A stretch of DNA of 63,876 nucleotides, counting the filler, from Collodictyon triciliatum (lineage: Eukaryota), in assembly GCA_043381765.1 (NCBI GenBank). It is 5 parts of 5 records of this genome, joined end to end, with 100 filler letters (N's around TTAATTAATTAA, not from the genome) between each part and the next. Parts side by side here need not be neighbours in the genome. Positions count along the whole stretch, not along the records: positions 1 to 23,485 come from JBHJMP010001118.1; positions 23,586 to 47,018 come from JBHJMP010001119.1; 3 more parts are not named here. The stretch is one strand, 5' to 3'. Below, piece after piece: positions 3,058 to 52,222 of this stretch. The notes beneath the pieces were generated by a model. The model saw only the letters and a program-made list of their open reading frames with translations. It was not told the DNA's origin and ran no database searches. The first letter of the stretch is position 1, and every line of letters begins with the position of its first letter. A program made the translations under genes and the position numbers.

Positions 3058-5116
3058 TCACTCCACAATCCGGAGAACATGCTCGTTATAGCCATACTCT
3101 TCCTTGTACTTCTCAAACAGACCCACCAGGGCCTTGATATATTGTTGCTGCACAGCCTCAATATCTTGTTCTGTTGGGCTCATATTCTGTTCTACCTGTT
3201 TTCATTTTCAAGTTATTTTTCTCCACTATTAAAACACAAGGAAAGTGAAATGATTGATAGCTATTCATGTTTTGTCAATCATTTCTTTGAATGGTTTTTT
3301 TGAACATATGTCAAGTAACTTTATATACTTTGAGAAACCACAAAAATGAGAATTATGATGGTTTGAGGAGACGAAGGCATTCCAATAATAATATAATTCA
3401 AGCGAGGTTGCACATTTGCTGAAATATCAAATTGAATTGAATTGAATTGAACTGATTGAGTTGGAATTACTTTGATGGGAGGGCCGAATACGGTTGTGAC
3501 CGGGCGTCTTTGCGGAAGAACCCCGAACGAATAGTTCCAAATTCCTCGTCCAAGAATGAGCGGGATTGAATAACCAAAGACTAATGTAAGAAATGATACT
3601 TAAACCTACGCTAAATCAATAAATAAAGGTAGATGGAGATAGTCGAGGAGAAAGTAGGAAATAACCGGTAAAATAGTGACTGTTATTATGGATGAACAGT
3701 ATGAGGCGTGGCTTTATGGTGCAAACGCGAAGAAGTCAAACACAGGCAGGTTGTAGTGTGAGATATGAGGAGGGAAAGAAGAGAAAACCTCTTTTTAGGG
3801 AATCCTGCATGGACCGAAGCTTGGAACCCTGTGGGTTATCTACTTGGTCGTACAAATCAGTCTATGAATACGGGAAGCAATTGTGAAAGTGGTTCTCATT
3901 TCCTACAGTACTTATATGCAGATAATTGGATGGCAAGATTTTTTTCATTTATTCGATTCAAATTGATTGGATGACAAGATGATATAACAAAAGCTTATCA
4001 TGCTTACTTCACCAAAGGAAAATACAGGAACCAAGTTTGCTCCGTGGGCCATAGCCAGCTATATCACAATGAGATTAGGAGAAAAATGATTTTATGAATT
4101 AAACATCAATACCTAATGCTCGTGGAATGGATATTGCATATAGCAGAACAAGGAGATAGTATAAATTATAGTGTTATGAATCAGCTTTTTTTTTTTTTTT
4201 ACTTTTGGTCGAAACAAGGGTAATGTAACACCTGGTTAGGGATAATAGAAATGTGTAAAGTGCAGATGAAAGGAATATATACTTTGATGAATCCCTTTCT
4301 TCTAAAGATGGCCAAGTCGTCTTGCGCAGGGCGTGAATAGAGAGCCTCGGCTGCACCCCCAACCAGAACAAGCATGGATTTTCCGCTGTTGAGGAGATGG
4401 TCACATGACTTTCGAGAGGCATCCACAAGTCCCATAGCGAGAAGGAAATCTCTCCAGAAGGGCAGGTAAAAGTTTTGTGATATTCTATCATAGAAAGATG
4501 CTAGTCAGATTTCACTGCGCATTATTACTAATTATTTCATTTATTTATACAAATTACAAAAGGAAAAAAAATATTTTGAATTATATTTTTTCCGTTCTGT
4601 CTGCATGAAATAGTTACGTGAGCACACGAATATCAAGGCCTTTGAAAACGGAAGATATATCACATGCTTCGGACATGACTGTCGACCAAATGCCAAAGGC
4701 TACGAAAGCCAACTCATAAAGTAAGAATGGGCGAATCGCAGGCAGATCCATGAAGCAAATTACCCACCAAGAATTCCATGAGGATGCGCAGCGAAGAGAT
4801 ACTTTTGATTCGGGGGATATTCGCAGGTCTTCACGAGCCGCACAGGGAAGTAATCGGCAAAGTAGCGCCAAAGACTCCAACGCTTGACAAAGTCCACCCG
4901 CCTTCCTCCAGTTTTCGGCGTCTTGCGGTCAAGCCAGAGCCAGGCCAGGTATAATACAAAGAGTGTGCGGGTCTTTCGCCCAAAGGCACACAGGAACAGG
5001 CCAAAGGCGAAGCAGGCTGGGCCGATACTCAGGGCGAGAGCCACGGCTGCAGTTTGCAAGCGGCGGGGAAGTGGGACGCTTAGCGGCGCAAAGCGGATGC
5101 GGGAGTGCGCTTGCAT
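3058..5116 (-). CDS. DGAT2: Diacylglycerol O-acyltransferase 2 (DGAT2/MOGAT family), multi-exon
   Basis: Motifs across exons: YFPVRLVK, HPHG, LVGGAAEAL, RKGFIK, GANLVPVFSFGE, GRGIWNYSFGVLP, TVFGPPI. Last exon ends ...EHVLRIVE* (TGA at 3058-3060). Confidence 0.93.
3940..3965 (-). mobile_element. 26-bp retroposon 3'-end fragment with 15-bp TSD, inside a DGAT2 intron
   Basis: TTTTTTCATTTATTCGATTCAAATTG is flanked by ATTGGATGGCAAGAT (3925-3939) and ATTGGATGACAAGAT (3966-3980). Confidence 0.75.
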
Positions 5117-5818
5117 CGGAGATCGGCTTGAGGCGAGGGACTTTAGCTGGGCGGAGGTTGGCTTCGTGTCTTTTTATTTTACTGTTACATGTTTATGTAT
5201 GTTTCTACTAGAATTTGTGATGTGGATTATGTTGTTTCATCACCAAATTCATATGTGGAAAAAATAACATTTCATTTAGAAATAATGTCTGTGCATAATA
5301 TAAAGTATCAAATATTACATACCAAGTAATTTGTATTATTTTTGTATAAAAAATATTGCGAACCAAGAGTGGAAGTGACTATTGCAAATATTTCAAGAAA
5401 GTAAAACAAAAATGTATATACTCATTGAATGTTCTAAGCTTTCTGTTTTGTCCAATTTTTACGAAGCTTCAAAGGAGACAACAACATACAGGCTCATTAT
5501 TCATATGACGCAACCTTATCAACAACTTTCTTTTTGAGAATATCCATACACGCGCTTGGAATGGCAGATGCGTTGAAGTTTCATGAGACTTTTGGTCTAG
5601 GGTGTTAAAAGAGCTTCAGTTTATAAGTATGGCGACCTTATCCTCTTCACTCGCTGTTTGCTATAAGAACCGCCAGCGAACATGATTCTTTTGTGCAAAC
5701 AGATAACAATAGGTACGCCACGAATGAGGAGTGCAACCACACCGAAAACATAGCTTATCAACGTATCCACAGCGGAGCTCATCACAACTTGACCACCACC
5801 ATTCTATACCTGTATCAA

Positions 5819-5903
5819 TTTTTTTCCCCTTTGTTTCATTCAAAGTTCAGCAAGGTTATGCCATACAAAGGGGCAAGATAGGTACGCATGATAGAGAGCA
5901 AAC
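5819..5903 (-). mobile_element. 85-bp retroposon 3'-end fragment with 13-bp TSD
   Basis: Shares TTCAAAG...AGGTTATGCCATACAA(A)GGGGC with the reverse complement of 36689-36742. Flanked by ATACCTGTATCAA (5806-5818) and ATACCTGTCTCAA (5904-5916). Confidence 0.75.
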
Positions 5904-5935
5904 ATACCTGTCTCAAATATTTTTTTCCACGCAGA

Positions 5936-8040
5936 ATGAAGGCCACTTATGTGGGATTATTCTTATGTGCGGCATTCGTTGTGGGAGGTGCTTTGGCCTT
6001 CTCACGTCGTGACCCTGTCACCGGGCGTGCCATTTACGGAACTGACAATCGCATCGATGAATACCAAGTGACAGACAACAACCTATTAAACGCCGGACAG
6101 GCAACTGTGGCTCTCATATCAAAAGAGGCTGTAAGGACTCCAATTGCCTTCAAATTTCTTTTTCCTTTACTCATATTTTCCTCCAACTATGGTCCTTGCT
6201 GCGTTAGAAGCCTTTTATATTGTTTTACAAACAGAATTAAACTTCAGAATGTTTGGAAAGATGCACCATGGGTCAAAAACCTTGTGACCAAACTCTGAAA
6301 CCCTCCCCATGTAGCTCACCAAAGTCGGGAATACCTTTGTGGTTTCCTCAGTAACCCTGTTGAGAGATGTCGATATTACTGGCTCTGACAATGAAACTGT
6401 TTCGGTCTGTAGTGATATAAACTTCGGAAACCAGGTTAGTCTGTCTCCTCATATTGAATAGTATTATTGCTTTTCTACAAAAAAATATCATGATTAAGAG
6501 TAATATTGAAGTTGTCATTTCGTTATTTGCATTATCAAATCACTGGAAAACAAACAAAGCCTATTGTCGCCGGTTGCTCTGGGTTCTTGATTGACAATGA
6601 CAAGATTGCTACTGCCGGCCACTGGTAATATATCGAGTTGTGTTATTTCTGAAAAGTTTGTTTGAATGTATCTAAAATTACTTTTTTTGTGGGTATGTAC
6701 CAGTATCGATAACCAAATAGCGTGTGACAATGCCTACTTTGTCTTTGGCTACATCATGACTGACGAAAATATCCCCGTCTTAGTTTTTCCGATTGAAGAC
6801 GTAAAAGTTATTTGCGCCAACATTATCACATTTTGATAAACATTAACATTTAATATTTTGGATTATTTTGCGACTGAATTTGGCTTTCATGATTTTCTGA
6901 GCAGGTTTATGAATGTAAATCATTCAAAACAGTGTACGAGGGTGATTACACCGGAGCAATCGACTTTTCCGTTGTCACCACCGACCGTCCAGTGGCAGGG
7001 AGAACCCCGTTGACCATCGATGCTTCGCCAGTGAGGATATCAATATTTGACTGCATCATTTGTCCATTTCTTAACAAATATTCCGTGCAACTGATTCATG
7101 GAGAATAATTCTATCAATGTCAATCGGTGTTCTCATAACATACATATCAAGGCAGCAGAAGAGGATTCAGTATATGTTATTGGGCACCCTACTGGACTTC
7201 CTCGTAAATATGCTGACGGAGCTGCCGTGCACTACAGCCTTCCTGACGATCCCCTTTATCAGTGGATTTTTATTGCTGTAAATATTTTCTCTTATTTGTT
7301 TTGAATTATCTATTTGGAATTGTACAAAGAAATCATTCAAAATGATTAAAGGCCATTTGATTTAGGACTTGGACACATTTGGAGGCAACTCTGGCTCTGC
7401 CGTCTTCTACAGCGAGACAAATCAGGTTGCTGGAATTCTTGTTCGTGGATCAGTAGACTATGTTGTAGATACCGAGCGCGGTTGTGTCGACGCCAATGTT
7501 TGCCCTGTTATTGACATCGAGTCAGAGAACTGTTTTGGAGAACAAGTTATGGTTTCTAAAGCCATCGCACCTTTTGTTTCCCTATCGTGCCAAGACGACA
7601 ACCAATGTAATAACAATGGCGTGTGCACGAACGGGGAATGCCTCTGCAACAGCAATTATCATGTATGAGGATGACTTAATTTTTTTTAAAATAAAATAAA
7701 AAAATAACACGACTGTCAAAAATCTTGATAAATTATTCCATACAAACAACAAAGACCGTTTAGTTGACAAAACCAGTAGGCCCTTCAAAGTGATAGTAAC
7801 CTGTCCTTTAACACGTTTCGTTGGATTATTTCTAATCTGCAGGGCAGCGACTGCTCCTTCCGATGTAGCCGTGATGTTTGCAACAACCAAGGTGATTGCG
7901 TTGGTTTGTGGGAATGCAACTGTGATTCCAGCTTCAAAGGGACTCTTTGTGTCGAGAAAGCTGATCCGAGCGGAAGCCCTCCAGCTTCTGTTGCACTGGC
8001 CTTCGTTGGCGTGATTGCTGCTGCCTTCATTGCCTTCTAG
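5936..8040 (+). CDS. Secreted trypsin-like (PA clan) serine protease with EGF-like repeats and a hydrophobic C-terminal tail, multi-exon
   Basis: Signal peptide MKATYVGLFLCAAFVVGGALA, then IYGTDNR. Catalytic triad motifs: CSGFLIDNDKIATAGHC (His), IDFSVV (Asp), DTFGGNSGSAVF (Ser); also GHPTGLPRK. Two Cys-rich EGF-like repeats; ends VALAFVGVIAAAFIAF* (TAG 8038-8040). Confidence 0.88.
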
Positions 8041-8638
8041 GTATACGCAGCTCAGTGCCAAGCGCTATTCGCAGACAAATGGTTTCCCTGCCAGAATAAA
8101 TTCAACAACAAAAACACAAAATTGAAAGGAAGAAAAAAAAAATTCAACAACAAAAAACAAAAAAAACAAAAAAACAAAAAAAACAAAAACAAAAAACAAA
8201 AAAGGAAAAGGGAACAGACAAAAAAAAAACAACTCTCAGTTACAATAATCTTTACAACAGTACCTGCGACGGACAACCTGAAGAAAAATCGAGAGCGACT
8301 TACAAGGAAATGGCACTTGGTTGGTTCCTTTGGCTTGGAGTAGCTGTTGTTTCTGCTACGATGTTGATCAGCACCGTCTTTTTTTGTAAGTTATATAGAA
8401 AGAATAGACTCTGACGATGACGACGACGACCACCACCTCTACTCAAAGTAATGAATAATGAAGCTTTGAAGGAAAAGAAACGACCCTTTCCCTCGTTAGA
8501 TGTATTAATGTATCACGATGTATTCCCTCAAAACTTATCGAGCGCTCGTTTATTTCTTTCTTTATCTTGCTAGTTGATAAGATAAACCTTTTCAAATCTG
8601 AGATATATGATATATGTATATAAGTTTGCTTTTATTTT

Positions 8639-9176
8639 ATGTCCATTCTCACTGCCTTCCTGCTTCATTTCAACATCAGAAAGATTTGCTGTCATATATG
8701 TAATTTATAATTAATTTCTTTATAAAATCCCAATAATTAATTACAACCATCATTTCATCGGTATCATCCACCTATAAAGGTAGCAGAGTTCCTTGACTTG
8801 GATCAAGATTACGTGAACCCTGTGGATCTCTGTCGGAGACTGAACCCTTACATCCGCCCAAACTTCCTTATCCACACAACTCTGACCTTTCACTACCTGT
8901 TTCGCCTAAGTTGGCCAGGCCTTATTATCACTGTGCCTTTAGTTGTGGTCGGAGTTATCAGGTTTTTTTTTTCACCATTAGTTGGTTAATACTTCAGAAT
9001 CGGATGTAGTTATTATGGAATACAACACCTTATAAATGCTGAATCTACTTGGACATGTTTTCTAGATATAATATGCCTTTATTTTTAATGTTTTGCCAAC
9101 GACCAATATAGAATACAAAGGAATGAATACATGCTTGACCCAACAGAGATTTACAAATCGTCGCACGCACACCGTT
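8639..9176 (+). CDS. Cornichon/Erv14-family ER cargo receptor, partial (runs into the N gap; start uncertain)
   Basis: DLDQDYVNPVDLCRRLNPYIRPNFLIHTTLTFHYLFRLSWPGLIITVPL, and in the next exon MLDPTEIYK. Confidence 0.8.
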
Positions 9177-9827
9177 NNNNNNNNNNNNNNNNNNNNNNNN
9201 NNNNNNNNNNNNNNNNNNNNNNNNNNNNNNNNNNNNNNNNNNNNNNNNNNNNNNNNNNNNNNNNNNNNNNNNNNNNNNNNNNNNNNNNNNNNNNNNNNNN
9301 NNNNNNNNNNNNNNNNNNNNNNNNNNNNNNNNNNNNNNNNNNNNNNNNNNNNNNNNNNNNNNNNNNNNNNNNNNNNNNNNNNNNNNNNNNNNNNNNNNNN
9401 NNNNNNNNNNNNNNNNNNNNNNNNNNNNNNNNNNNNNNNNNNNNNNNNNNNNNNNNNNNNNNNNNNNNNNNNNNNNNNNNNNNNNNNNNNNNNNNNNNNN
9501 NNNNNNNNNNNNNNNNNNNNNNNNNNNNNNNNNNNNNNNNNNNNNNNNNNNNNNNNNNNNNNNNNNNNNNNNNNNNNNNNNNNNNNNNNNNNNNNNNNNN
9601 NNNNNNNNNNNNNNNNNNNNNNNNNNNNNNNNNNNNNNNNNNNNNNNNNNNNNNNNNNNNNNNNNNNNNNNNNNNNNNNNNNNNNNNNNNNNNNNNNNNN
9701 NNNNNNNNNNNNNNNNNNNNNNNNNNNNNNNNNNNNNNNNNNNNNNNNNNNNNNNNNNNNNNNNNNNNNNNNNNNNNNNNNNNNNNNNNNNNNNNNNNNN
9801 NNNNNNNNNNNNNNNNNNNNNNNNNNA
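9177..9827. other. Assembly gap (N run)
   Basis: Uninterrupted Ns. Confidence 0.99.
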
Positions 9828-10289
9828 ACATATTTTGGGGAGCAATCCTTCACTTTTTGTAGATCTGATTTCAATCATCCTGAGATAAAAATTTATTACC
9901 TAATACACGTGCATATTTGGGGTGAATTAGTTACATAAAAAAATATGCGAGTTAAAAAAAAAAAAAAACAACTAGAAAATCAGAAAATCAGAAACCATCT
10001 CAGTAATTTTCAGGGTATCCATAATGAATTCAATATCTATGTATTCTCTCAACATGATTACACACTTCATCATTAAGCCAAGTTGCATTATCCAATCTCT
10101 CTAAACTATCCAATTTTATATCGATCATGGGGTTCTCAAACTAAATGAATTTGTAAAATGAGAGAAACATCGCATATCTACCGCAATATATAGTTAGTCG
10201 TAGCCTAATGTTCATGGTGAAGTTCTTTTTTTTTTTTTTATTTAATCGAATGAAGGATGAAAAGAGATGGAATCAACGTCCAATACTTG

Positions 10290-11330
10290 TTGGATTACCT
10301 TATTGATCGTGTGGTTCTTTGGTTTACCAATTCTAGCTTGCTTAATTGCACTGAGTTGATGAGCAGTTATGGGGACAAGTTCAATATCTACGGTGCCAAC
10401 AGCAGGCAATTTCTATTTAAAGGAGATATGACCCTCAAATTATTCCATCATTGCACCAAATTTATCAAGAGCTTATTCATGATATCTTTCAGCTTTTATA
10501 TATAAGAGAAGAATAGTTATGACCACGCCTAATATTCAGAGTAATGTCAATAAGTCCCCGAATGCTTCTGAAAACTTGAAAGAAAAAAGGCAAACCATAT
10601 TCCTGATCACATGCTTTTTTTTAATATTTTCCTCCCTATATTTGAGTGACTCTTCGAAATATTTCGCCTTTTCATCAAGTAGCTAAATAAACCGTGCGTG
10701 TGGACTTAGAATACAAATAATCAAAAATTGTGCAAAATAACAATAATAGAGTATGGCAAGATATAACTATTTAAAATCATGCTACTCGATCTTCGTCTCC
10801 CATTGCAAAAAACGCTAATCTTGCAGATTGAAGATCAATGATAAATTGGCTAAATTGCATGATAGTGATTAAAATCACATCTGTGTAATTATTCGAAACT
10901 TTCATTCTGTATATTTTGTATTTTGTTATTACATGAAAGCAACATCAAATTATGTAGAGTATAGATATAATTGAAACAAAAGAAGGACTGATGAAAGTAA
11001 ATCTCAAGTGAATAGATAACTGATATTGAAAGAGACACTTTTAAATGGACGTTTTTTTTTTTTTAAAAAAAAAAGAAGATAGGTCATCTAGCCTATCTAT
11101 ATAATTATGCATGTATCATACTTCCTTATCTGCTTCATTTGCAATTCCAAATCAACTTTATGAACCCATGTCAGCGTATCCTTTCTGAGTTTAATTTACG
11201 TGGAATAAGAGAATGAGATCGAATAGACTAACGATGAAGTTAAGAATAATACATATAAATGAATGCACATTAACGTATGTAATGATGTTATCGAAAAAAG
11301 TGATGAGGATTAAATTACTATAACAGTGCA

Positions 11331-11380
<50 letters not shown>

Positions 11381-11806
11381 CATATTCGTATATACTGCAA
11401 TGATTCGGCACTTACCTGAGCGAACTGATATGTTTCTTCACCAAGAACTTTTCAGGAGATGATCGGAACGAATCCGTGACTGATGCGCTCCTCTTACTAA
11501 CAAAATTATCCATTCTGAAGGCAGGCGTATATAGTTAGAATTATATCCGAAAAAGAATCCCCTGTCTTCTCTTTGTGCCTCCCAAGGATGTTTTATTATT
11601 ATCATTATCTTGTTAACGGGGTGCTTAGGAGAGGACACAGAAAAGTGGACAGAGCCCGCAGCTTCATAAGCCGAAGCATGTTTTGTGTTTTCGATCGGCT
11701 TTGCATGCCATCTTTCGGCTGCAGTAAAAGTTTTTTTCGAAGCAGGCGAGCTGGTTGTGAGGAAAAGAAGAGACAAAAAAAAAAAAACTGTTTGTTGGTA
11801 GGGCAC
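10290..11806 (-). CDS. Hypothetical multi-exon protein with a possible signal peptide
   Basis: MPYQQTVFFFLSLLFLTTSSPAS start and several short open GT-AG-bounded segments (e.g. KDTLTWVHKVDLELQMKQIR, LLDEKAKYFEESLKY). No family recognised; 3' limit uncertain. Confidence 0.4.
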
Positions 11807-11856
11807 AACGAAGAGAGAAAGACTGCAGTAATATGTGCAAGCAACTGCGTGCTGTA

Positions 11857-12273
11857 ATGGATATCAGATATCGCTACGAAAAAGGACGTGACACTTATGG
11901 TGGACAACCTTGCCCTCAGACTCAGGATCGCCTTCCCAAGAAAAAAAAAACGCAGCTGCCTTCATTAAAGAGGGGGTCTTTCCAGCTTCTCAACCGCCAA
12001 TACATCCCCATGCCAGCAAAAACTATCACAAAGGTTGCGCACCTATCCAACATACCGCTGTCGGTTCGCTGGACTGATATTTTTAAGGCCTGCAGTGAAT
12101 ACTTCACCCCCATCAAAGTCAACTGGACAAAGCCTGGAGGAATATGCATGAATGATGCACCCGTGGCTTTTGACAAAGAACAGGAATTAATGGGGAAAAT
12201 ACCCACCTTTGCCTTCATAAAAGGTTCTACTGAAGAAGACAGCGAGCAGTTCCAAGCCTCGGGCCTACTTTAA
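11857..12273 (+). CDS. Small RRM-like protein
   Basis: VAHLSNIP (RNP2-like), helix VRWTDIFKACSEYF, TFAFIKGSTEED (RNP1-like). Alternative ATG at 12010. Confidence 0.4.
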   Translation: MDIRYRYEKGRDTYGGQPCPQTQDRLPKKKKTQLPSLKRGSFQLLNRQYIPMPAKTITKVAHLSNIPLSVRWTDIFKACSEYFTPIKVNWTKPGGICMNDAPVAFDKEQELMGKIPTFAFIKGSTEEDSEQFQASGLL

Positions 12274-12610
12274 TCGTCAGTCAGCGCAGACAGCCATTGA
12301 GTCATGCCTGTCGCACGCAGGGACAAAAGGTGGGAGGGCGGCTCTGGGTCGGCCGATGCCCTGGCTTCACAAACTCCTCCTCCTGCCTATAGATCGATTG
12401 TGTTGGGTGGTGACCGACCTGCTGGAGTGAGGGCATTACCTGTTTATGGGAGATGCCCTTCACCCACACGTAGAGGAGTGGCTTTTCGCCTTGCTTTATT
12501 GGCTGCCTCCATCGCTGTTTCCTTCGCTTCATTTTTCCTTGTCCTCGTCCTTACGCCAGACTGTGAAGATGTGGCAAATGTGATGAAGATCATGGAACAG
12601 CATCACGTGC

Positions 12611-15600: not shown

Positions 15601-16894
15601 TCAAGACCTGATGCACTCATCCTGAAACTATGAAAGATTATTAGTGCTTTAGGGCAGTAATATTATTTTTAATCAGTGAATTTGCTATGATTCTTCAAGT
15701 GCAGCATAATTAATTATTTTTTTTAAAAAAAAAGGAGTATAAAAAAAGTTACACGCACATGAGTTTCATATTAGATTGTTTCACAACTTCGCCACGGATT
15801 TGAATAAGACCTTTTGTAGGCTCACCATGTTTTTTTCTATCATTTTTCAAAATATATTGATTAATTATTACTTTAACATTGAGGTATTTTGAAAATAATA
15901 TGGTTTAGAACGAACTTGATAGATTGTCGAATTCTTTGGCCTCTTGCCGAAAGAAGATCAGCGAGGCGAAAATGCTGTTACATCGTGAGATTACAAATAT
16001 GAGCCAGAGGGTAACGACGTATTATCGGGGAAAATATGAGACTATTTAAGCATATATCTATATACTAACGTGTTCCCCAATATAATCTTGTTGTTCGATA
16101 GGTTTCCTTTCGTCATCCATGTCGTAAACCATTGCGCGAAGAGGATTGTCCTTTGGTGACATTCCCAAAAAAATAAATAATCGTCACTAGATAGAATAGA
16201 GGGAGCGATTGAAAAACATAAATAACTCACAATTTCAAAGGCATAATTGACACGAATGCTCTTCACAAAATTCGGATTTGGATTGTCTCTGGAGTTTGAG
16301 TTTGTTAATATTGAAACACATTTATTGTGGCATAGAAGAGTCACATTCATATGATAGGAAAGGCGAACATATAAAGGAGCAGAAGGATGACTACAGATTA
16401 TGATTTCCTTAGGCAACAAAAAAAAAAAAAATGAAAAGGGAATCGTATTCGAAAGGTTTCAAAAGTATCAGTCACTTTATCCATTCAGTGCGCCCAAGCT
16501 CAGTCCAGACCCCAGCAGTAAAGCTGTGCAAAACAACTATTGGGTCGCTTGGCGACAACAGATCAAGCTGCGGTAGTTCCCTTTGTTTGGGTAAACTCAA
16601 CAAGGTAAGTTACCGGCGCATATGTGTCCTTTTATCATTCATATTTATACAGAGCACTAAAACACTTCGCGAAATAAAAGCTGTGTGCGATTATCATCCT
16701 TGAATAAAAGAAAAAAGAAAAAGGAAAAGGAAAAGGAAAAGGAAAAGGAAAAGGAAAAGGAAAAGAAAATGGAAAAGAAAAAGGAAAAAAAAGGATAGAA
16801 AAAGAAAAAGAAAAAGAAAAAGAAAAAAGGATAGAATAGACCTGCAAGCAAAGAATAGATCTACGAAGCCGTGTCCTTGAACTTGGTCCTGCAT
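12611..16894 (-). CDS. Copine (C2A-C2B-vWA calcium-dependent phospholipid-binding protein), multi-exon
   Basis: Spliced motifs: VDLFFACRELPQLDLLSPSDP, ELGRTEWI, DNPNPNFVK, YSFMDYITGGYEISV, LFGPTNFAP, GIGNATFDNMDRLDGD, RDIVQFVPL, LAEVPTQFVGYM. An extra 3' exon near 12444-12560 cannot be excluded. Confidence 0.93.
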
Positions 16895-17771
16895 GCTGTC
16901 CTGATTCTGTTTGAAGTCAATGGCCAATATGCGAGCAGGAGCAGCCGATCCGTGATCTTTCAAATCAAAAGGGATGGTGTTATGTCATCTGTCGCACACA
17001 CAAAGTCTATGAAAGAATTGTGTGTTCCAGAAAAGGGCTCACAATGGTTGCTGTGCTGGCAAAAATATTGCCGTCTCTCGGAATCGAACCGAGGTTATCA
17101 CGGCCACAACGTGAAGTACTAACCACTATACTAAGACGGCTTCTTGTCGTTAGAGGAGAGAACTCACATATATAATTACATGATGTTTGTTTTCTGAGGC
17201 AGCCAAACTTGCTTCAATCCCTCGCAGCGTGAGATGCCTTTCAGTATTTCCTTACATTGATGTGGGTTCGGAAATAAATATTTCTCAGGTTATTTACTAG
17301 ATTGGGATGAAGAGCCAAGTGATATGAATGTTGTGCTGTTCAATTGGCGAATAACGCAACCGTGACACATGTTGATTAATGGTGCTTCGCCATCTGGTTT
17401 TGAAAACATCCCTTTAAATGTTGTATATATTTATGTAAAATTTATTTAATTGTTCTGGGTTTTTTACATTGTGTTTTAGCGTTTGCTGAATGTGAGGGAC
17501 TTGAGGGCGAGTACTGCTTAATCCTCTAAAATACACGAGGGTTTGGTTTTTGACATCGATGACATAGTATCGTTATCTCAGGCAACTTCGATGTGACGTT
17601 GGCAAGGGCATTATCTGGTTTGCTACAAAGTTTCATTCACGCTGTAAAGATGTAAGCAAAATAGCCCCGCGTGCATTGGAGGTTCCATTCCGTATGAATA
17701 CATCTGAACTTGTTTTCCATCGTATAGAATAGCTATGACGCGCCTGAGCAGAAGTATAGTATTGCAGTCTC

Positions 17772-17810
17772 TTTTTTTATTTCTTCCTTTATTCGATTCA
17801 AAGCATAGGG
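17772..17810 (-). repeat. Copy of the retroposon 3'-terminal motif, no clear TSD
   Basis: TTCCTTTATTCGATTCAAAG (17784-17803), identical to the core at 26912-26949, preceded by a T run. Confidence 0.6.
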
Positions 17811-18321: not shown

Positions 18322-19317
18322 ATGTCCATCAAAGTCGCACTGTGGGGCTTCGGCGGGATGAACAAGATTGTCCTGGGCTACGTGCAGGAGAAGGGCTACA
18401 AGGTGGTTGCGGTTGTGGGACACCACAACGTGGGGGAGGATGCCGGGGTTGTTGCCGGGGGCGCAGCCGTGGGCGTGAGCGTGACTCATCCGTCGGCCGC
18501 TGCGCAGGTGCTGCGCGAGACAAAGCCGGACGTGGCGATTCTGGCGACGCGGTCGTTCCTGAAGGACCTTGCGGGCCCGATGAAGACGCTTGCGGAGGCG
18601 CGCGTCAACGTCATCACGATTGGCGAGGAGGCGTTCTACTCGTGGAACACGGAGCCGGCACTGACGCAGGAGCTGGACAGCGCCTTCCGCTCCAACGCCG
18701 TCAGCCTCACAGGGACCGGCTACCAGGATGCCTACTGGCTGTACATGGCCTCGGTCCTGGTGGGCGTCTCGCTCAAGGTCGACAGGCTTGTCTGCTACAC
18801 ACAGTTCAACGTGGACGACTACGGCGTGGCCCTGTGCGAGGCGCACGGTGTCGGCCTCAGCCCCGCCGAGTTTGCCGCAAAGTTCACGCCAGAGAACTCG
18901 GTCCCCGCCTACGTGTGGAACTCCAACGAGGCCCTGGCCGTCCGCCTCGGCTACAAGATCCTCAAGACCTCCCAGGTCTACCAGCCGCTGGTTCTGCACA
19001 AGGACATTGTCTCCAAGTCTTACGGCGCCCTGCCCACCGGCAAGGTCGGTGGCCTCAAGGCCATAGTCACCACCCTTGCCGAGACGCCCAGCGGAGACAA
19101 GGTGGAAATCGAGACCCACCAGATCGGCCAGGTCTACTACGACGACCTCGAGGACTACTGCCAGTGGCAGACCCACGGCACGCCCTCCCTCGAGCTCAGC
19201 TGCAAGAAGCCCGACACCGTGGCCATCACCTGCGCCTCTGCCGTCAACCGCATCAAGTCCGTCATTGCTGCCAGACCCGGCTATGTCACCGTTGCCGAGC
19301 TGGGACCCCTGGCCTAA
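18322..19317 (+). CDS. NAD(P)H-dependent native amine dehydrogenase-like protein (2,4-diaminopentanoate dehydrogenase/DapB-like superfamily), intronless
   Basis: Rossmann motif VALWGFGGM; ITIGEEAFYSW, LTGTGYQDAYW, TQFNVDDYG, HGVGL, YVWNSNE, TCASAVNRI, PGYVT. Single GC3-rich ORF from ATG 18322. Confidence 0.88.
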   Translation: MSIKVALWGFGGMNKIVLGYVQEKGYKVVAVVGHHNVGEDAGVVAGGAAVGVSVTHPSAAAQVLRETKPDVAILATRSFLKDLAGPMKTLAEARVNVITIGEEAFYSWNTEPALTQELDSAFRSNAVSLTGTGYQDAYWLYMASVLVGVSLKVDRLVCYTQFNVDDYGVALCEAHGVGLSPAEFAAKFTPENSVPAYVWNSNEALAVRLGYKILKTSQVYQPLVLHKDIVSKSYGALPTGKVGGLKAIVTTLAETPSGDKVEIETHQIGQVYYDDLEDYCQWQTHGTPSLELSCKKPDTVAITCASAVNRIKSVIAARPGYVTVAELGPLA

Positions 19318-23452: not shown

Positions 23453-23485
23453 TTTTTTTTTTTTTTTTTTTTTTTTTGTTTTTTT

Positions 23486-23585
23486 NNNNNNNNNNNNNNN
23501 NNNNNNNNNNNNNNNNNNNNNNNNNNNNNTTAATTAATTAANNNNNNNNNNNNNNNNNNNNNNNNNNNNNNNNNNNNNNNNNNNN
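23486..23585. other. Artificial contig-join spacer N44-TTAATTAATTAA-N44; also at 47019-47118, 55968-56067 and 61618-61717
   Basis: Identical 100-bp structure four times; the 12-mer has stops in all six frames. Confidence 0.95.
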
Positions 23586-23734
23586 AAAAAAAAAAAAAAA
23601 AAAAAAAAAGGCAAAAAGGCAAAGGAGTGAATCCAAACTTGAAAAAAAAAAAGGAAAATAGGAAGTAAGAAAGCGGAAACGTCCAGGCCCAGATTGGCTT
23701 GGATGCCACCTATTATCTTACCATCGTTCGGGTG

Positions 23735-24250
23735 CTACTTTGGGCTGACAGAGAAGTAGTCAGCAATCAGCAATTGCATCCTGCAGTTTGGCCTGTAGCC
23801 TGGGTCTTGTGCTTGCATGAGAGATACAAGGCGAGGTTTAATAACTTTCTCAGCCTCTTTCCACATGTCTCTTTTCACGGGGTCTGAGTAGTAGAGAACG
23901 TGCAGGTGGCGAAGGAAGCTGTTGAGGAAAGAGATTTGTATGATGTCATTCAGTCTATTATCAGGAATGAGTGGCTGGTTGTTAAGTCTTGCTTTGCGTG
24001 ATTATATGCGCGCTATCCACATAGTCCATAGCAAATGGCCTCGCGTCACTGCCCAGAATGTTTTCGCATCTGGACGCAGCTGTTGCAGAGGCCCGAATAT
24101 CGCCTGGATTGGGCCAACAGCCGCAGCTGTCTTGAGTGTCAGTCGAAGAATCTCACCGGCTGTTTCGTGCAGGTTTTGAGCGAAGGGACATTGCAAAAAA
24201 ATGTGTGCTCAATGAATTCATCACGGTTGCTGCAAAGTGTGCATTGTTGA
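23735..24250 (-). mobile_element. Decayed non-LTR retrotransposon ORF2 3' end (zf-RVT-like CCHC), copy 1
   Basis: CTLCSNRDEFIEHTF/(frameshift in T run)LQCPFAQ...IFGP...FWAVTRGHLLWTMWIARI*...SFLNS...YSDPVKRDMW...QLLIADYFSVSPK*. Intronless, with one frameshift and one internal stop. Confidence 0.8.
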
Positions 24251-24759
24251 TAGATTTAAACACTTTTTGCCTTACGTCACCTTCAGCCGCGGATTGTGTT
24301 GAAATTATTTTTTGGACAAATCTTTTTATTAGAGTGCTACATACTTTTGTTTTTTGTTTTTTGTTTAACTATTTATTATTTTCCCCTGGATTTTTGTTAT
24401 CTTCTCTGCACGATGACGAAAGTGACTTTTTGGCCAAAATGTAGTCTGTTAGGAAATCTGTCTTTAGTTTTCCTCTCTGTGTCTTTAAATCTTTGATTAT
24501 TTTTTTTTTGAAAAATATAATCATCGTGCATGCACCTTACCTTTGTCATGCGTGTTCGTTTAGCAAAGAAAAACATATAAAAGTGACCTGCACCCGAATC
24601 CAACACGCTTCACAGCTTTCAACTTAGGCGCAACAACTTCGCTGAACTGTAAAAAAATGCAAAAACTCTTTCCTTGAGCAGAATAAAGGAACAATCCCAT
24701 AAAAGTGCACACAACCAATGAAAGTATATTCCTTTTTATAAATGATTCAAATAGATTCC

Positions 24760-26842: not shown

Positions 26843-26911
26843 TCATGGGTGTTTGATGGGGGGTGAATAAGCTGGGAGGGGGTTATACATGTGTGTGTTG
26901 GTGATGAATAT

Positions 26912-26949
26912 TTTTTTTTCCTTTATTCGATTCAAAGTGTAGCGAGGTT
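26912..26949 (-). mobile_element. 38-bp retroposon 3'-end fragment with a perfect 18-bp TSD
   Basis: T8-CCTTTATTCGATTCAAAGTGTAGCGAGGTT is flanked by TGTGTTGGTGATGAATAT at 26894-26911 and 26950-26967. Confidence 0.88.
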
Positions 26950-27689
26950 TGTGTTGGTGATGAATATAATGAGAACCTTGATTTCTTCTGAGTTCCTCTT
27001 CAAAGTGGCCTCTTGAACCTCTATCAATGAAAGGATACTTGCGAGTACGTTCTCAAGAGGGTTGAATGTTATCAACTGTATATTAAGCGAGGTGTGTTTT
27101 GGGTTATTCTATTTGTCTGGAGCTGGGAAGGCGCATTCAAAGGATTGGAAAATGTGTCATTGAAAAAAATGCGTACAGATGGGAAAAGCGCTTTGATTGT
27201 CGCAGCTTTGTCTGTTTCTACCGGCTCCATAGTCCCTGTCTTCAGGGGGAAAGTTACTCAGTTCCGCATTTTTCTTGTTGGGTTTTTTGGGTTTTTTTTT
27301 GGGTTTTTTTTTGGGTTTTTTTTTGGGTTTTTTTTTGTTTCTTTCTGATCCAAAAAAGCCACCAGCATGACCTGTCTCGGGCTGGTGATGATTCTCCCCA
27401 TAAAACACGACCGTTTCATCACACAACCATAAACCAAAAAAGCAATGAAAAAAAAAACAACGCCAAAATCAGAGTCGAATCCCAAACCACACACCTCCCA
27501 ACCGCCTCCCTTCGGTTTTCCAGCACCAGAGTTAGGCGCCTGTTTCCTTCTAGGGCTGTGCTGGAGAGTTCAGGAATGATGAAGGGAAAAAAAAAGAGCT
27601 AACACGACAACCAGTTGGCGCATACGGCTTGACCCGCTTTGTAGGAAGAAAAACTGAGCTTTATTGAATCGAGTGATGCCGAAAGGAAG

Positions 27690-30600
27690 TTATGAGTCCA
27701 TCGGGTTGATGCTTTGTGGTGTGCTTCGTTTGAGCTTCCATGCGTGCGATGCAACCGGGTTACGTAGCTTCGATATGACTTTATCCCAAGTCAGCTCCAA
27801 AATAAAGACGCTCTTGCTATCCAGAAAGTCAAAAAACAGTGCAGGGGTGTCTCGGAGAACCAGCTGTCGTATGATAGGCAAAAATTAGAACAAGAGAGAA
27901 AAAGAAAATAAAAAGGAAAGGAGATTGTATCATCGGAAATAGAGTGTGATATAAAAGGATTTGGTTGGTTTGTAAACAGCTGGAAAACGTGCATGGGCTT
28001 CAGATGTTGATGAAGACAGCCTAAGTGCTGGCGAAAGCTCATGTGTACCATCTTCGGGTTGGGTGGTGGGCTGTAATTGTGTTTGTGGGTATGTGTGATT
28101 GTGAGTAATGGGATAAACTAGCACACAGGTCTAGTAGAACAACTAAATCGTTAAGGAAAAAAATATCGAGTGCGGAATACACATTAATGTTTGCAAAGAA
28201 CAGTGTGTGAGAAACAATCCGAGTATTTGCATCACAAATGTGCTTGAACTTTGGAGTGGGCGGAATCAATAACGAACCGGCGAGAGGTGGTAGCGCATGA
28301 TAAACCAAGTGTGATACGCAAAAAAGAGGGATGGATCTGATTGATCGGGAGAAATGACAAGATTCGACGCATTGTAGACAAACTTTGGTTTTGGGTTGAT
28401 GTCCGGCTCAGTTCTTTATGGATGAATGAATGTTGTTTTTTTCTTAGTTTTTTTTTTTAGAAAGATCGCATCCGATGCAAGTTTTTTTACGCAAAAAAGG
28501 TGAAGTTAACAAATTGGTCTAATTTTTTTTTCTGATTGCATTTCTGTGGGATTTTTAACCGATGAATGAAAACAGTATTACGTCGACCCAAATGGATGAA
28601 TGTGGCCTGGCTTCAATCCTATGGATTTTATGAGATTGGAAGTCGTGAGATAATGCAGTGCGAGGCTTTGCGGGTCAAACGCCATGGATAATACGCTGTG
28701 GCCACATAAGACAAATTTTGCGTTCTGTGCGACAAATTAAATCCCTTTTTTTAGAATCTCACTGGAAAAAAAAAGGATTAGGTAATTAAATCAAATAGTT
28801 TCGTTTCTATGAAATAGGGCACTGAACATATTAGGTCCTACCTCAATAACGCCGTTTTCCATCTGGTAAATACCGATATTATTCCTGACATCGGCAACTG
28901 AAATAAATTTACAGTCATTGCTGACACATCCTGATGTAATGGTATGAGCATAACCCTGGCTTGAATCCCTTCCTATTTATAAGGATGATTTTACCATCAC
29001 TAATTAAAAGCTAAAATGAATATGTGAATCCATATGTGCCAAAAAAAAAACCCTCGATTGTCAATCTAACACTAAAATGTATGCATTTTTTAGAAACTGT
29101 TTTAATGTAAAAGAAAAGAGTAAAAGGAACCTGATTGATTGGCCATGAATAGTTCTGTATGGTTGACGGTGGATAAAACAGTAATGTCGTGAACTCGAAT
29201 AATCTTTATTTCGTCGAAATTGGCACCAGTCCCAAGCAAAACAACATGCTTTCCATCACTAGTGAATACCAATTTTCTGCATGGTTGAATGCCTGTTGGG
29301 TCCAGTACGGGTTTCACAAAAGAGATAATCTAACATAAAAGATCATCTTCTTACTGATAAGCTATCAAGATAACGAAACATGATAATTATACCCAAAAGT
29401 TTTCTTCAAGGAAAGTTTATAATAGGTATGCCTTTCTTGTACGAGAGAAAAAAATATGTGCTTCTCTATGCGTGTTATTTTGGTTTAAATAAAGAAGAAA
29501 AAACAGAAAGAATACATTTTTAAAATATGAAATCTCATAAAGCCGTGTTTCTTCATTTGTTGTGAGACCGAGATACTTGCCGGAAGGAGACATAGCTGAA
29601 TCCCGAATGTTTGATTTAACCTAATTTTTTTTTAGTGGAGTGTGGGTTTAAATGTGAATATATTGATCAAATTTCACGGTATATGCTTAGCATAAAAATA
29701 AAATAAAAAAATAGACCAACCACCTCAAGTTTTTAAAAGGAAAATAATTCATTGAGTCCGAATATTGAATTAAAAAATGGACCTTTGGCATGATTTTCGC
29801 AAGGAAGCAAGCTTCAGGGCCTTGACCACCTCCTTGTTTCATTGATTTGGAATCTGTGTATAGAGGACAGATTAATGTGTGAGTCATTAGAAGAAGAAAA
29901 GTATCCTAAAGTAAGATTTTTTTTCCCTTATCCTAAGAGTAAGATTAAATGATACTCTTTCTGTTCAAAATTAGGGAGATAAACGTAATAGGGAGAAAGA
30001 TCGACATCGTTCTTATGCAAATACCTAAAGAGAGTCTCCATATATGCAACTCTCGGTTATGTCTGACCAGAAGTAGTCGTTTCTTTCTCACCAAAGACGC
30101 AATAGAGTCATTTGGAAATGGATAAGCTGGGTAGAGCTTGTGCAGCTGAAAGTTTGATATCGGAATTCCTTGTATAATAGTATCGATACCGCCAGTTATG
30201 ACAATCCCATCAACAATCTCTACAGTTCGAATATCGTGGCTGTGAGGTTTTCGGGAGAAGTTAACTGTCCATTCGAGGCCGTTCTACAGCAATTACACAG
30301 ATCAGCAGATAATCAGATCAAGTTGATAGTATAATGAGTACTTTTTCCTTTCTTTTTTTTTTTGAGATAATTTGATTGACAGTAGATATATAAATAGATT
30401 GCTAGTGAGGCACATGGCCGTTTTTTTTATCTCATGTGTTCCATTCAATTGAGTTGTTTTTTAAATGATGAATATGTGCCATCCTGGGTAATTATATATC
30501 GAGAACAAACTAGACATCATAAGAAAAGTAGAAATTGCTAGAAACCTTTCCTATTGATGATTGATACATGATCAACTGTGTGTCCACACCAGCAGAGAAA

Positions 30601-32342
30601 ATAATATTTTCTTCTTTGGATACTACCAGACTCGTTACATCGCATTCGTGTTCATGGTAGGAGTGGATTGAAGTTCCAAAGTTGCTATCCCAGAATTCTG
30701 TGAAACCTCCGGCTGACGCAGTCACGATTACGTTGGTACTAGGCAGCGAAACTTTCTTGAAGAAGAGGAAATAGAAGATACACTAAAGATGGAATGATAT
30801 TCGCGTACCTCAGAAAAAGTAGCGCCCAGACATTTCTAAATTTCGACATTTCACTTGTTTCGAATGTAACATTTATTTTGTTTGCTTCTACGTCCACGAC
30901 AGAGACCATACCTCCAGAGCTTCCGACGGCAAGCAGGTCACCCTTTGGGTGCCAACAAACAGACAATAGCCTTTCTAAATGGAGATATAAAAAAGAAAAG
31001 AAAAGAAAAGAAAAGAAAAGAAAAGAAAAGAAAAGAAAAGAAAAGAAAAGAAAAGAAAAGAAAAGAAAAGAAAAGAAAAGAAAAGAAAAAGGAGTTAGTA
31101 TGACCATAAAATTTTATGAAATCACTGCTGGGAATAGATAATAAGAATACAGAAACAAGCTTGTTCGAGTGGTGCGTATTTCCAAAAACATGAAGACAAA
31201 CAAGAAAGAAAATTTGCTCGAGACATAATCAAAATGGTGGTTCATTATTGAATGTGTATTCAAGTGTAACCTTTACAAATGGGGGTGACTTGCTTCAGCT
31301 CGAATCGGTCGGATGAAATGTCAAAAATACGAAGATTTCCGTCCTCGTATACAACCGCAATGCACTTTCCTGACGGACTAACTGAAATGCACCATATCCC
31401 GCTGCCAGACGATGGAACGGAACTCTGTATCAATAGATTTTGAGTGGCTGTCTCACTTTTTCTCTCCTTTTTATTTATCAAATATGCGACACATTATAAC
31501 TCGACAGACCGTATAATTTTTTAAAATTAGAAATATATCATGGTGATAGCAACAATAGAGTTGACTATGAAGCGAAACAGGCAGAAAATGCAATTTTCTT
31601 TTTAGTGCAGAATGATAATGATTAGTATGCTATCGGACTTTGTCCATCAAGGACTTACTTTTACAATTAGTCGCTGCAAATCCCACTCCACCAGCGCTCC
31701 AGACAATGAACCGCCAAAGAGTCTGGTGGAGAGCCCTTGTGTAAGTGAGTCCATCGTGCGGATCGGACGTTTCGAGCTACCATAAATGACCTAATTAACC
31801 AAACAACAAGATATTAGCGTTCTGAAATAATAATGCCAACAGCGACGAGGGGATAAACAATCAAGAACCACATTAGCACAAAGATTCAACAGCAACTCTC
31901 CACATTATGTCTCTTATTTTCTATTATTACTTATTAAAACATAAGAATCGTGGCTGGATGACAGTCGTTGAATGATTCAGTGATTTATGTATGTACCAAA
32001 AGTGGCTTCAATATTAAAAAGAAAATGGAAGAAAAAGAGTTTGAAAAACATAATGAACCGATAAGCGCAAAAACAAAAACAAAAACAAAAACAAAAGGAA
32101 AACAATATGACAGTGAATATAGGAAGTTGAGGGGAAAAGAAAAAAAAGAGGGATGCCCCAAAAACTAGGCCAGTGGGTTCAACCTGTGCCATTTGAAGAT
32201 AGGGTTTTGTTCGCCAAAGCTCCACGTTTCCATTCGCTCGAGAGACTGCGAAGCTTTTTCCTTGGTCCAGCCTTCTCAGGCACTCAATTCCAGACGGCCT
32301 CCAGTTCACAAACTGCCCGCGATGAAGGGTGTATTCGGTCAT
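27690..32342 (-). CDS. UTP4: U3 snoRNP WD40 protein UTP4/cirhin, multi-exon
   Basis: MTEYTLHRGQFVNWRPSGIECL...AVSRANGNVELW; GIWCISVSPSG...YEDGNLRIF; LSVCWHPKG; HSHDIRTV...TGGIDT; C-terminal LFFDFLDSKSVFILELTWDKVISKL. Confidence 0.88.
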
Positions 32343-33424
32343 TTGTTCGGGTCTGGGTGCGAAGTGGTGTGAGATTTCATGGTGGTTTCCGTTGAATAGA
32401 AGCCGGATCATCGCTTGTTAGAAAAACTGTGTGCGTTGGATTTCTCGCTCAACATCTCTTTTGTCATCATGTATATTCGAAGCTGCCGGGCTGCGTTGTC
32501 TTTGAAGCTGCTCCTCTTGTATTTCTGGCTGGCCTTCTTTCTCTCTGGATTTCGCTTCTTTGTTTGATCATATTGCGGCGCTCGTGAGGCGATTATGATG
32601 CTGGTAAAGGGCGGTGTGGTCTCTCTTCGTCGCATTTCTGGAATATATACAATAAACAGTAAATATGATTAAATTGAATCCAGGAATCATGTTTGTAACT
32701 CAATATTTATGTTGCGTTAATATATTATATATATTTTACTAGTTGATCGACGGCATTAGTCTCGACAACATCCAGAATAGGCATAAATCGGAGAAGTACA
32801 GATTCACCGGGCTTCGTTGAAAGCCGTTACTTTGATTCTATTCCAAATTAGTATTCCACATAAGGCGCTTCTGTCCTACTGAATATCCTTTTTCGCATCC
32901 CGAATCCACATCAATCAAACCAGCCACCAATCAAAATGAATCACAAACACATGATGGCCAAAGACCGAAACGAAAAACCAAAACCAAAAACCAAACTAAA
33001 ATAAAGACCAAGGGATAACTCGAAACCTGAAGGCGAAGCAAAGACTCAGCGCGCCCAAAGTCGAATCACCCACCAAAGAGACAGGACAGTCTCGCCAGTG
33101 ACAAACTGGTTCGGCTGGGCTTCTTTAGCTCGGCGCTCATTTGTTGGTGTTTTAAGTGTTCCTTTGGGTTGTATTTCTCTGGTTCAAACTCTTTTGTCCC
33201 AAGCCTGCCCTTCGTTAGTTTCGGTGTGAGTCAGGGTCTATAATAGCCTTAGCCTCGAGTCCTTCATCATAATTGAATGTAGAAAAAAAATAGGTGAAAG
33301 CTCTGCAGTGTGTTTTCATAAGTGAGGACTAAATGATGTGACCTTTTGAAAAAAGAAAAAAGAAAGAAGAAAAAAAGAAAAAAAAGAAAAAAAAAGAAAA
33401 AAAAAGAAAAAAAAGAAAAAAAAG

Positions 33425-33518
<94 letters not shown>

Positions 33519-33692
33519 NAAAAGAAAAAAAGAAAAAAAGAAAAAAAGAAAAAAAGAAAAAAGAAAAAAAGAAAAAAAGAAAAAAAGAAAAAAAGAAAAA
33601 AAGAAAAAAAGAAAAAAAGAAAAAAGAAAAAAGAAAAAAAGAAAAATGGAAATGGAAAAAAATGGGGCATTTTAGGAAATCAGCAACAAAGC

Positions 33693-36579
<2,887 letters not shown>

Positions 36580-36688
36580 CCACCCACTTAAATATAACCA
36601 TCTTTCTCATCTAGCTTTTATTATTCTGAATGCCTATCTTAAAATTCTGGCCTCTTCATCCCTTTCTCATTATCTGTTCTCTTCTAAA

Positions 36689-36742
36689 GCCCCTTGTATG
36701 GCATAACCTCGTCTCACTTTGAATCGAATAAAGGAAAAAATA
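36689..36742 (+). mobile_element. 54-bp retroposon 3'-end fragment with a perfect 14-bp TSD
   Basis: GCCCCTTGTATGGCATAACCTCGTCTCACTTTGAATCGAATAAAGGAAAAAATA is flanked by TGTTCTCTTCTAAA at 36675-36688 and 36743-36756. Confidence 0.88.
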
Positions 36743-37063
36743 TGTTCTCTTCTAAAAACAAACTATGTTGGAAAACTTTTAGCGTCAGATATTTATCAAT
36801 CCTCTTTCTATTATTTCGACTCATTTCGACTTATATCTTACTATTTGAGCTTTATTAACCTAACTCTCACAAAAGCAAATTTATCATAACCACCAGCCGT
36901 TCCATTTAAGCGTTATGACCTTTTCTTTTTTCTTTTTTAAAAATGAAACAGACAAACGTTAGCTTAACATTACAATGATTGCACGAGAGATACTTTCTAT
37001 TTTCCCTCATATTGCACCTATTTCACATGAATAAGATGACACATAAAAAAATATGATAGAACT

Positions 37064-47545: not shown

Positions 47546-52222
<4,677 letters not shown>

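What the first reader, a model, noticed from the sequence alone, without database searches (positions are those of the whole stretch)
3925..36756. Family of ultra-short (26-85 bp) retroposed 3'-end tags, each with a 13-18 bp target-site duplication
Seen: a shared terminus, consensus ...GCCCCTTGTATGGCATAACCTCG..CACTTTGAATCGAATAAAGGAAAAAA (AATAAA then a short A tail). It occurs at 3940-3965, 5819-5903, 26912-26949 and 36689-36742, and probably at 35602-35624 and 17772-17810. All copies end at the same 3' point and differ only in 5' length. The four clear copies have direct repeats of 15, 13, 18 and 14 bp; two are perfect and two have one mismatch. Established: variable 5' truncation, an A tail and a variable TSD are hallmarks of target-primed reverse transcription. 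Inference: a non-LTR element here often aborts after a few tens of nt, leaving about one micro-insertion per 10-15 kb in introns and intergenic DNA. The perfect TSDs suggest recent activity. Such tags would fall below typical repeat-finder length cut-offs.
Basis: partly seen in the sequence, partly recalled or inferred. Interest (0 to 1): 0.8.

Follow-up and report, generated by a model that had tools for sequence, protein, structure and literature searches.

The report
18-base LINE tails, cut alike
This eukaryote's genome holds thousands of tiny A-tailed insertions that are only the last bases of an L1-like jumping gene, about half of them cut off at the same two bases 18-19 from the tail, likely because copying stalls early at a small RNA hairpin: an extreme form of a known process.

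Summary
Confirmed. The tags are the 3' end of an APE-RT-zinc-finger (L1-like) LINE. The 17-nt core has 2,028 exact matches in the 75-Mb genome (control 0). Of 144 sampled copies, 77 have clear target-site duplications (15-19 bp, mode 17), with median insert 26 nt. One tag inside a LINE copy has an empty site in a paralogue. Truncation is not smooth: nested counts fall 1,830 to 1,177 to 745 over two bases, so 1,085 of 2,028 copies stop 18-19 nt from the tail. These junctions show only chance microhomology, unlike truncated human L1. A sister LINE also leaves short inserts, without a single cliff. A 280-nt SINE-like element shares only these last 16-18 nt and shows a much weaker cliff. Best reading: reverse transcription aborts early, here at the foot of a weak LINE-specific hairpin; an RNA already cut at that point is the close rival. 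The scan noted this family before on other pieces of this genome (7 notes) and a similar case in another genome. New variant of a known kind.

The parts
3940..3965 (-). 26-nt tag (core plus short A tail) between 15-bp direct repeats 3925-3939 and 3966-3980
   Evidence: 1 mismatch between repeats
5819..5903 (-). 85-nt older LINE-A 3' fragment between 13-bp repeats 5806-5818 and 5904-5916
   Evidence: 1 mismatch; core has 3 substitutions
17772..17803 (-). tag starting at the modal C (-1); flanking repeat decayed (about 11 of 15 by eye)
26912..26949 (-). 38-nt tag between perfect 18-bp repeats 26894-26911 and 26950-26967; intronic position inferred from sequence only
35604..35625 (+). tag with decayed repeat, inside intron 35537-35662 (GT..AG) of a spliced + strand gene
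   Evidence: (table 5)
36689..36742 (+). 54-nt tag between perfect 14-bp repeats 36675-36688 and 36743-36756; lies in an RNA-run contig (36517-36752, no differences) downstream of the spliced gene
   Evidence: (table 8)
55183..55891 (-). internal fragment of the parent LINE family A (74-88% to L093)
23743..24259 (-). fragment of sister LINE family B (90% to L210)
55025..55130 (+). family-B 3' tag, about 106 nt
8115..8141 (+). family-B micro-tag with a repeat of about 17 bp (ends approximate)
24587..24694 (+). decayed fragment (74%) of the SINE-like partner element that shares the 16-18-nt tail

Best explanation
The tags are the last 12-60 bases, most often the last 18-19, of an L1-like LINE plus a short A tail between 15-19-bp target-site duplications, likely pasted by target-primed reverse transcription that likely aborts early and, in this family, likely stalls at the foot of a small upstream RNA hairpin. 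Steps: (1) shown: parent LINE A with APE, RT and zf-RVT and a 93-nt 3'UTR ending in the tag; (2) inferred from established L1 biology: ORF2p nicks AT-rich DNA and primes on the A tail; (3) shown: early termination is common in LINE A, LINE B and the SINE-like element, while copies that pass about 50 nt often run hundreds of nt; (4) predicted: once the terminal AUAAAGG is copied, a hairpin spanning -22 to -1 forms with its 3' foot at the modal stop; (5) shown: the cDNA end is joined bluntly or with 1-2 extra bases. Identity as truncated LINE copies about 0.95; the hairpin-stall cause of the cliff about 0.45.
For: Parent: zf-RVT E 1.6e-7, RVT_1 E 3e-26, APE motifs in a frameshifted copy; sister family B matches human L1 ORF2p at E 7.7e-45 versus R2 at 1.6e-19. 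TSDs: 77 of 144 copies, lengths 15-19 in 66 of 77, inserts of 30 nt or less in 57 of 77. Empty site: a 26-nt tag plus 16-bp repeat in L093 is absent from paralogue L078 and from one contig each in runs X1 and X2 (joint 2425-2468). Cliff: per-base retention 0.93 inside the core, 0.90, then 0.64 and 0.63, then 0.89. Junction position does not track tail length (rho -0.02, n=64). Hairpin -22..-1: -4.0 kcal/mol, pair -22:-1 probability 0.79 in isolation; the one common polymorphism (A/G at -4, 29 vs 31 of 62) keeps pairing with U-19; no sampled junction at -6..-8. The SINE-like element has the same tail but unrelated upstream sequence, and keeps 72 of 112 copies across the two bases versus 745 of 1,830 for the LINE (p 1.5e-6). 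Family B: 31 of 34 TSD-flanked inserts 57 nt or shorter, several clusters, no single cliff. A review states that stem-loops were implicated in Alu 5' truncation (PMC4859970, passage).
Against: The hairpin is weak and not unusual: z -0.47 and -0.54 for 3'-end folds. The G variant gives only -2.7 kcal/mol and pair probability 0.05-0.44, and in longer contexts the A variant gives 0.21-0.57. No compensatory pair was seen. Cliff junctions show chance-level microhomology (13 of 30 with 1 nt or more, chance about 0.44; differs from 0.8 at p 1e-5). That resembles full-length rather than truncated human L1 (PMC2912911, Results) and fits an RNA that already ended there. The SINE type still loses 36% over those two bases. 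Strong strand displacement by non-LTR RTs (recalled, no call) makes a stall at so weak a stem doubtful.
Confidence: 0.5

Rival explanations
1. Pre-cut template: the LINE RNA is cleaved or 5'-to-3' trimmed to a protein-protected 3' fragment of about 26 nt, and RT runs off its 5' end.
For: Stop is sharp: a rough correction for chance matches puts about 760-890 events at -1 and about 200-230 at -2. Junctions blunt in 17 of 33, extra bases in 6 of 33, like full-length L1 (PMC2912911). Other junctions lean to more microhomology (2 nt or more in 7 of 20 vs 4 of 30, p 0.09). The modal start coincides with the start of the tail shared with the SINE-like element.
Against: The SINE RNA carries nearly the same tail yet mostly passes this point; family B has no single cliff. 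The microhomology contrast is not significant. No small-RNA data were available.
Confidence: 0.3
2. The tags are a self-propagating micro-SINE copied from one or a few short master RNAs.
For: Very uniform 5' end and about 1,000 exact copies of the modal form.
Against: No promoter can fit in 18 nt. The modal form is embedded in a continuum from poly(A)-only and 12-nt inserts through starts inside the core to kilobase copies. Short copies are heterogeneous in the G run (2 G: 79, 3 G: 22, 4 or more: 13). No shared upstream flank among short copies except the SINE-like family.
Confidence: 0.06
3. Ordinary random truncation; the short bias comes from selection against long inserts and from collapse of long young copies in a short-read assembly.
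For: Long near-identical copies often sit at contig ends or gaps (4 of 144 censored), so long copies are under-counted and the share of short ones is an upper bound.
Against: Neither selection nor collapse can produce a 59% loss over two adjacent bases flanked by about 10% per base.
Confidence: 0.05

Closest known systems
5'-truncated insertions of L1-clade LINEs (human L1 ORF2p, TPRT)
   Same: APE-RT-zinc-finger ORF2, AATAAA next to an A tail, TSDs within the 4-20 bp range (PMC4859970, passage), AT-rich target, most copies truncated.
   Different: Median insert 26 nt including tail; half stop at one 2-nt position; tails only about 5-14 nt; chance-level 5' microhomology, where nearly 80% of truncated human L1 carry it (PMC2912911); target motif looser than TT/AAAA.
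Stringent LINE/SINE pairs sharing a 3' tail (UnaL2/UnaSINE; Chlamydomonas L1-1_CR/SINEX-3_CR; maize LINE1-1_ZM/ZmSINE)
   Same: A non-coding element with A-box and B-box-like motifs ends in the LINE's 3' sequence and has TSDs.
   Different: The shared tail is only 16-18 nt, against about 80 nt for SINEX-3_CR (PMC3747384, passage) and about 45 nt for SINE2_Gav (PMC5786205, passage); it equals the LINE's own modal insertion. No stable conserved stem-loop was demonstrated.
Structure-linked 5' truncation of Alu
   Same: Truncation clustered at an RNA structure (one sentence in review PMC4859970; primary paper not read).
   Different: Alu truncation affects a minority (45 of 322 in PMC4607524, passage) and lies far from the tail; here it is the majority outcome 18 nt into the cDNA.

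Membership tests
TPRT insertions of an APE-type LINE | Target-site duplication of variable length | tested here: met
   77 of 144 copies, mode 17 bp; 0 of 300 control pairs reach the threshold
TPRT insertions of an APE-type LINE | Common 3' end with A tail, variable 5' end | tested here: met
   5' ends run from inside the core to more than 2 kb, strongly peaked at -1/-2
TPRT insertions of an APE-type LINE | Parent with APE endonuclease, RT and C-terminal zinc finger ending in the same sequence | tested here: met
   (family-A copy L093 is frameshifted and has stops)
TPRT insertions of an APE-type LINE | Empty site with one copy of the repeat | tested here: met
   paralogous empty site, one case; no allelic empty site tested
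L1 clade | RT phylogeny within the L1 clade | tested here: inconclusive
   no tree built; best solved match is human L1 ORF2p; database hits only 22-28% identical, several with PF03372+PF00078+PF13966
L1 clade | TT/AAAA endonuclease preference | tested here: inconclusive
   T/A-rich positions -5..-2 and A at the first TSD base in 69 of 77, but short A runs; tail and TSD A's cannot be separated
L1 clade | ORF1 upstream of ORF2 | not tested
   L093 has low-complexity open frames upstream; no family scan was run on them
Typical 5'-truncated L1 junctions | Excess 5' microhomology | tested here: not met
   13 of 30 cliff junctions with 1 nt or more, equal to chance, below 0.8
SINE (for the tags themselves) | Own head with internal Pol III promoter | tested here: not met
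   modal insert is 18-19 nt of LINE tail directly after the TSD
SINE2 (for the 280-nt partner element) | tRNA-derived head with A and B boxes | tested here: inconclusive
   B-box-like motif in 10 of 26 copies (many truncated) and A-box-like motif about 40 nt upstream (box patterns recalled); Rfam E-value scan of 5 loci gave no tRNA match
SINE2 (for the 280-nt partner element) | LINE-derived 3' tail and TSDs | tested here: met
   shared last 16-18 nt; TSDs clear in truncated copies (13 of 30), weak (score 9) in two full-length copies

The most novel reading that the evidence does not exclude
The last 18 nt are a portable minimal handle for this LINE's reverse transcriptase. The LINE RNA is processed to a discrete RNA of about 26 nt that is retroposed as a complete template, and capture of one such tag created the 280-nt SINE-like element, whose shared tail begins exactly at the modal junction. 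Thousands of tags in transcribed DNA would then be seeds for new SINEs and new poly(A) signals.
Probability: 0.2. Interest if true: 0.8.

Novelty: new variant of a known kind. Interest (0 to 1): 0.55.

Why it matters
Here about a thousand natural events stop at one position, with two built-in controls in the same genome (a sister LINE and a SINE-like element with the same tail), so stall versus pre-cut RNA is directly testable with a 60-nt template. It also delimits a candidate RT-recognition tail of 16-18 nt, suggests a route to SINE birth, and shows that roughly 8,000 insertions (rough estimate) can hide below usual repeat-finder length limits.

Tried and rejected
Hairpin inside the tag (CUUUG/UAAAG) as the protected unit: -0.3 kcal/mol, z 0.24; 0 to +3.4 kcal/mol for three registers; pairing probability 0.05 or less in context. 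Not supported. Fixed-length ruler from the 3' end: no correlation with tail length, though tails span a narrow range. Splice-acceptor origin: no AG precedes -1 or -2 (sequence). A second parent as the cause of the count drop: the SINE type nearly always has C at position 0 (34 of 36) and so is mostly outside the core count; TSDs abut the cliff junctions directly. An apparently intact 1,227-aa ORF in family B is 746 aa followed by an N gap; notebook entry 1 is wrong on this, and entry 3 wrongly calls window 23741-24249 a further family (it is family B). Sequencing runs: no holder on record as RNA was listed. X1 is a guessed RNA run with spliced GT..AG joints and 365 contigs on LINE A, but contigs give no strand, ends or level, so this does not show an active master; X6 gave nothing. 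No allelic empty site was seen among the listed joints (29 were hidden). PMC9977147 (passages) was irrelevant; PMC4607524 (passages) does not mention stem-loops. Nine literature searches listed no paper on a modal 18-nt LINE-tail insertion; the library lacks most subscription papers and I read no supplements. The host lineage was not determined.

Full report
Observation. The four clear copies and their 15, 13, 18 and 14-bp repeats are exactly as described. The core TTTGAATCGAATAAAGG occurs 5 times in the window against 0.04 expected and 2,028 times exactly in the 75.4-Mb genome, with 0 for the reversed pattern. Below, position 0 is the first T of the core. The two probable copies have the core and tail but only decayed repeats.

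Parent. Extending from longer copies leads to a LINE, family A: APE motifs, an RT with YADD (RVT_1, E 3e-26) and a C-terminal zf-RVT (E 1.6e-7), then a 93-nt 3'UTR ending in the tag. The longest copy fetched, L093, is frameshifted; no intact family-A ORF2 was seen among the loci fetched. An RT search gave 128 matches from 125 scored of 292 candidates, including a sister family B (70% identical in RT) whose APE-RT part matches human L1 ORF2p at E 7.7e-45. Placement in the L1 clade rests on this and on domain order; no tree was built.

Anatomy of the inserts. I fetched the places listed for the exact core in contigs C1-C266 and the 34 extra places of a shorter pattern in C1-C209. Of 144 distinct copies in these loci, 77 have a TSD score of 11 or more and length up to 24; the other 67 were left out of junction counts. 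Mismatched flank pairs reached that score in 0 of 300. TSDs are 15-19 bp in 66 of 77 and perfect in 48 of 77. Inserts have median 26 nt, 57 of 77 are 30 nt or less and 72 of 77 are 50 nt or less. This sample under-represents long young copies, which tend to break contigs. Targets are AT-rich. A de novo scan also found a poly(A)-only insert and a 12-nt insert with 17-bp repeats (73 hits vs 12 in the control, in loci enriched by design). One tag landed inside LINE copy L093: 26 nt plus a 16-bp repeat, absent from paralogue L078 and skipped by one contig each in runs X1 and X2.

The cliff. Nested exact counts: 2,548 to 1,697 over positions +6 to 0; 2,028 at 0, 1,830 at -1, 1,177 at -2, 745 at -3, 531 at -6. 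Retention per base is 0.93, 0.90, 0.64, 0.63, 0.89, so 1,085 of 2,028 stop at -1 or -2. These losses include mutation. In the TSD-checked sample, 34 of 77 start at -1/-2, against 9 at 0/+1 (p 1.7e-4) and 4 at -3/-4. Position does not correlate with tail length. Of 33 cliff junctions, 17 are blunt, 9 have 1 nt overlap, 1 has 5, and 6 have 1-2 extra bases. After adding 3 compatible junctions and leaving out the 6 with extra bases, 13 of 30 have any overlap, equal to chance. Truncated human L1 show nearly 80%, full-length L1 chance level (PMC2912911; abstract and second part of Results read). Copies that pass the first 30-50 nt often run far: 12 of 30 loci with the -28..-11 motif extend more than 250 nt.

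Built-in controls. Family B has 1,029 exact 3' motifs; 34 of 48 sampled copies have TSDs, with inserts of 23-124 nt (31 of 34 at 57 nt or less) in several clusters. Early abortion is therefore shared, and the single cliff is specific to A. A third element shares only the last 16-18 nt with A. It is non-coding, about 280 nt, with A-box and B-box-like motifs, 106 first-look candidates of which 40 were scored, and 76-90% identity to the query; Rfam gave no tRNA match, so it is SINE-like. Its shared tail starts at -1. Its copies keep 72 of 112 across -1 to -3, versus 745 of 1,830 for A (p 1.5e-6), and 10 of 13 TSD-flanked ones end at -13 to -56. Some of its short copies may be mutated A tags.

Mechanism. 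TPRT is inferred from hallmarks and established L1 biology. For the cliff, folding predicts the terminal AUAAAGG paired with -27..-21 (probability 0.95 in a 55-nt context) and, once that arm is copied, a hairpin -22..-1 whose foot is the modal stop (-4.0 kcal/mol for the A variant, -2.7 for G). The SINE-like element lacks this hairpin. Against it: the folds are no more stable than shuffles, the G variant pairs poorly, and the junctions look like run-off from an RNA end. I give stall about 0.45 and pre-cut RNA about 0.3. Human ORF2p is reported to position a stem-loop next to the poly(A) tract (PMC12503042, passage), which makes a structured 3' end plausible but tests nothing here.

Context. 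Run X1 gives spliced GT..AG contigs for a gene at 33752-36249, placing the 35604 tag in an intron; the 36689 tag is in an RNA-run contig downstream. Two freshwater metagenomes hold short identical pieces of the window (188 and 151 nt) and LINE-A pieces. The host lineage was not determined.

Known and new. Truncated LINE copies, LINE/SINE tail sharing (PMC3747384 and PMC5786205, passages) and structure-linked Alu truncation (PMC4859970, passages) are known. Nine searches listed no report of a modal 18-nt LINE insertion; PMC4176376 and PMC1636434 were seen only as listings, and no supplements were read. Earlier notes of this scan describe the same family in this genome and a similar case elsewhere; I consulted them after forming my reading. 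The SINE-like partner, the empty site and the junction analysis are not in the lines of those notes that I saw. Verdict: real, a new variant of a known kind, interest 0.55.

Noticed in passing
L299, L295, L290 (G000 C2464, C1492, C8244); window 24587-24694: A SINE-like element of about 280 nt with A/B-box-like head that shares only the last 16-18 nt with LINE A; 8 of 30 loci also share more than 1.4 kb of upstream sequence (70-87%), so it sits inside a larger repeat there.
   Followed up: partly
window about 561-585 (-), 8115-8141 (+), 55025-55130 (+): Micro-tags of sister LINE family B; 1,029 exact motifs genome-wide.
   Followed up: yes
LINE A 3' end, positions -25..-11 and -1..+13 (window 36693-36731): Internal imperfect 15-nt repeat (12 of 15 by eye) whose second unit starts at the modal junction; unexplained.
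   Followed up: no
window 36727-36752: The tag's AATAAA lies in sense downstream of a spliced gene, and an RNA-run contig stops 20 nt after it; contigs cannot show an end, so use as a poly(A) signal is only a lead.
   Followed up: no
L162, L151, L075, L093: Nested insertions: a B tag inserted into the end of an A-type tag, and A tags inserted into LINE A copies.
   Followed up: partly
L167, L199, L045: Poly(A)-only or 12-13-nt inserts with perfect 17-bp repeats.
   Followed up: no
L156, L188: Tags with 18-20 nt of non-LINE sequence between the TSD and the tag, possibly captured flank or untemplated sequence.
   Followed up: no
window 18322-19317 (+): Intronless, GC-rich gene with a 2,4-diaminopentanoate dehydrogenase C-terminal domain (PF19328, E 2e-9) in an otherwise intron-rich, AT-rich region; possibly of bacterial origin (inference).
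   Followed up: no
window 4760-5173 (-), 51356-52222 (+), 17069-17140 (-): Diacylglycerol acyltransferase exon, RING-finger ORF and a tRNA-His gene.
   Followed up: no
window 23743-24259: Family-B fragment draws very high summed contig depth in run X1; depth of contigs is not an expression level.
   Followed up: no
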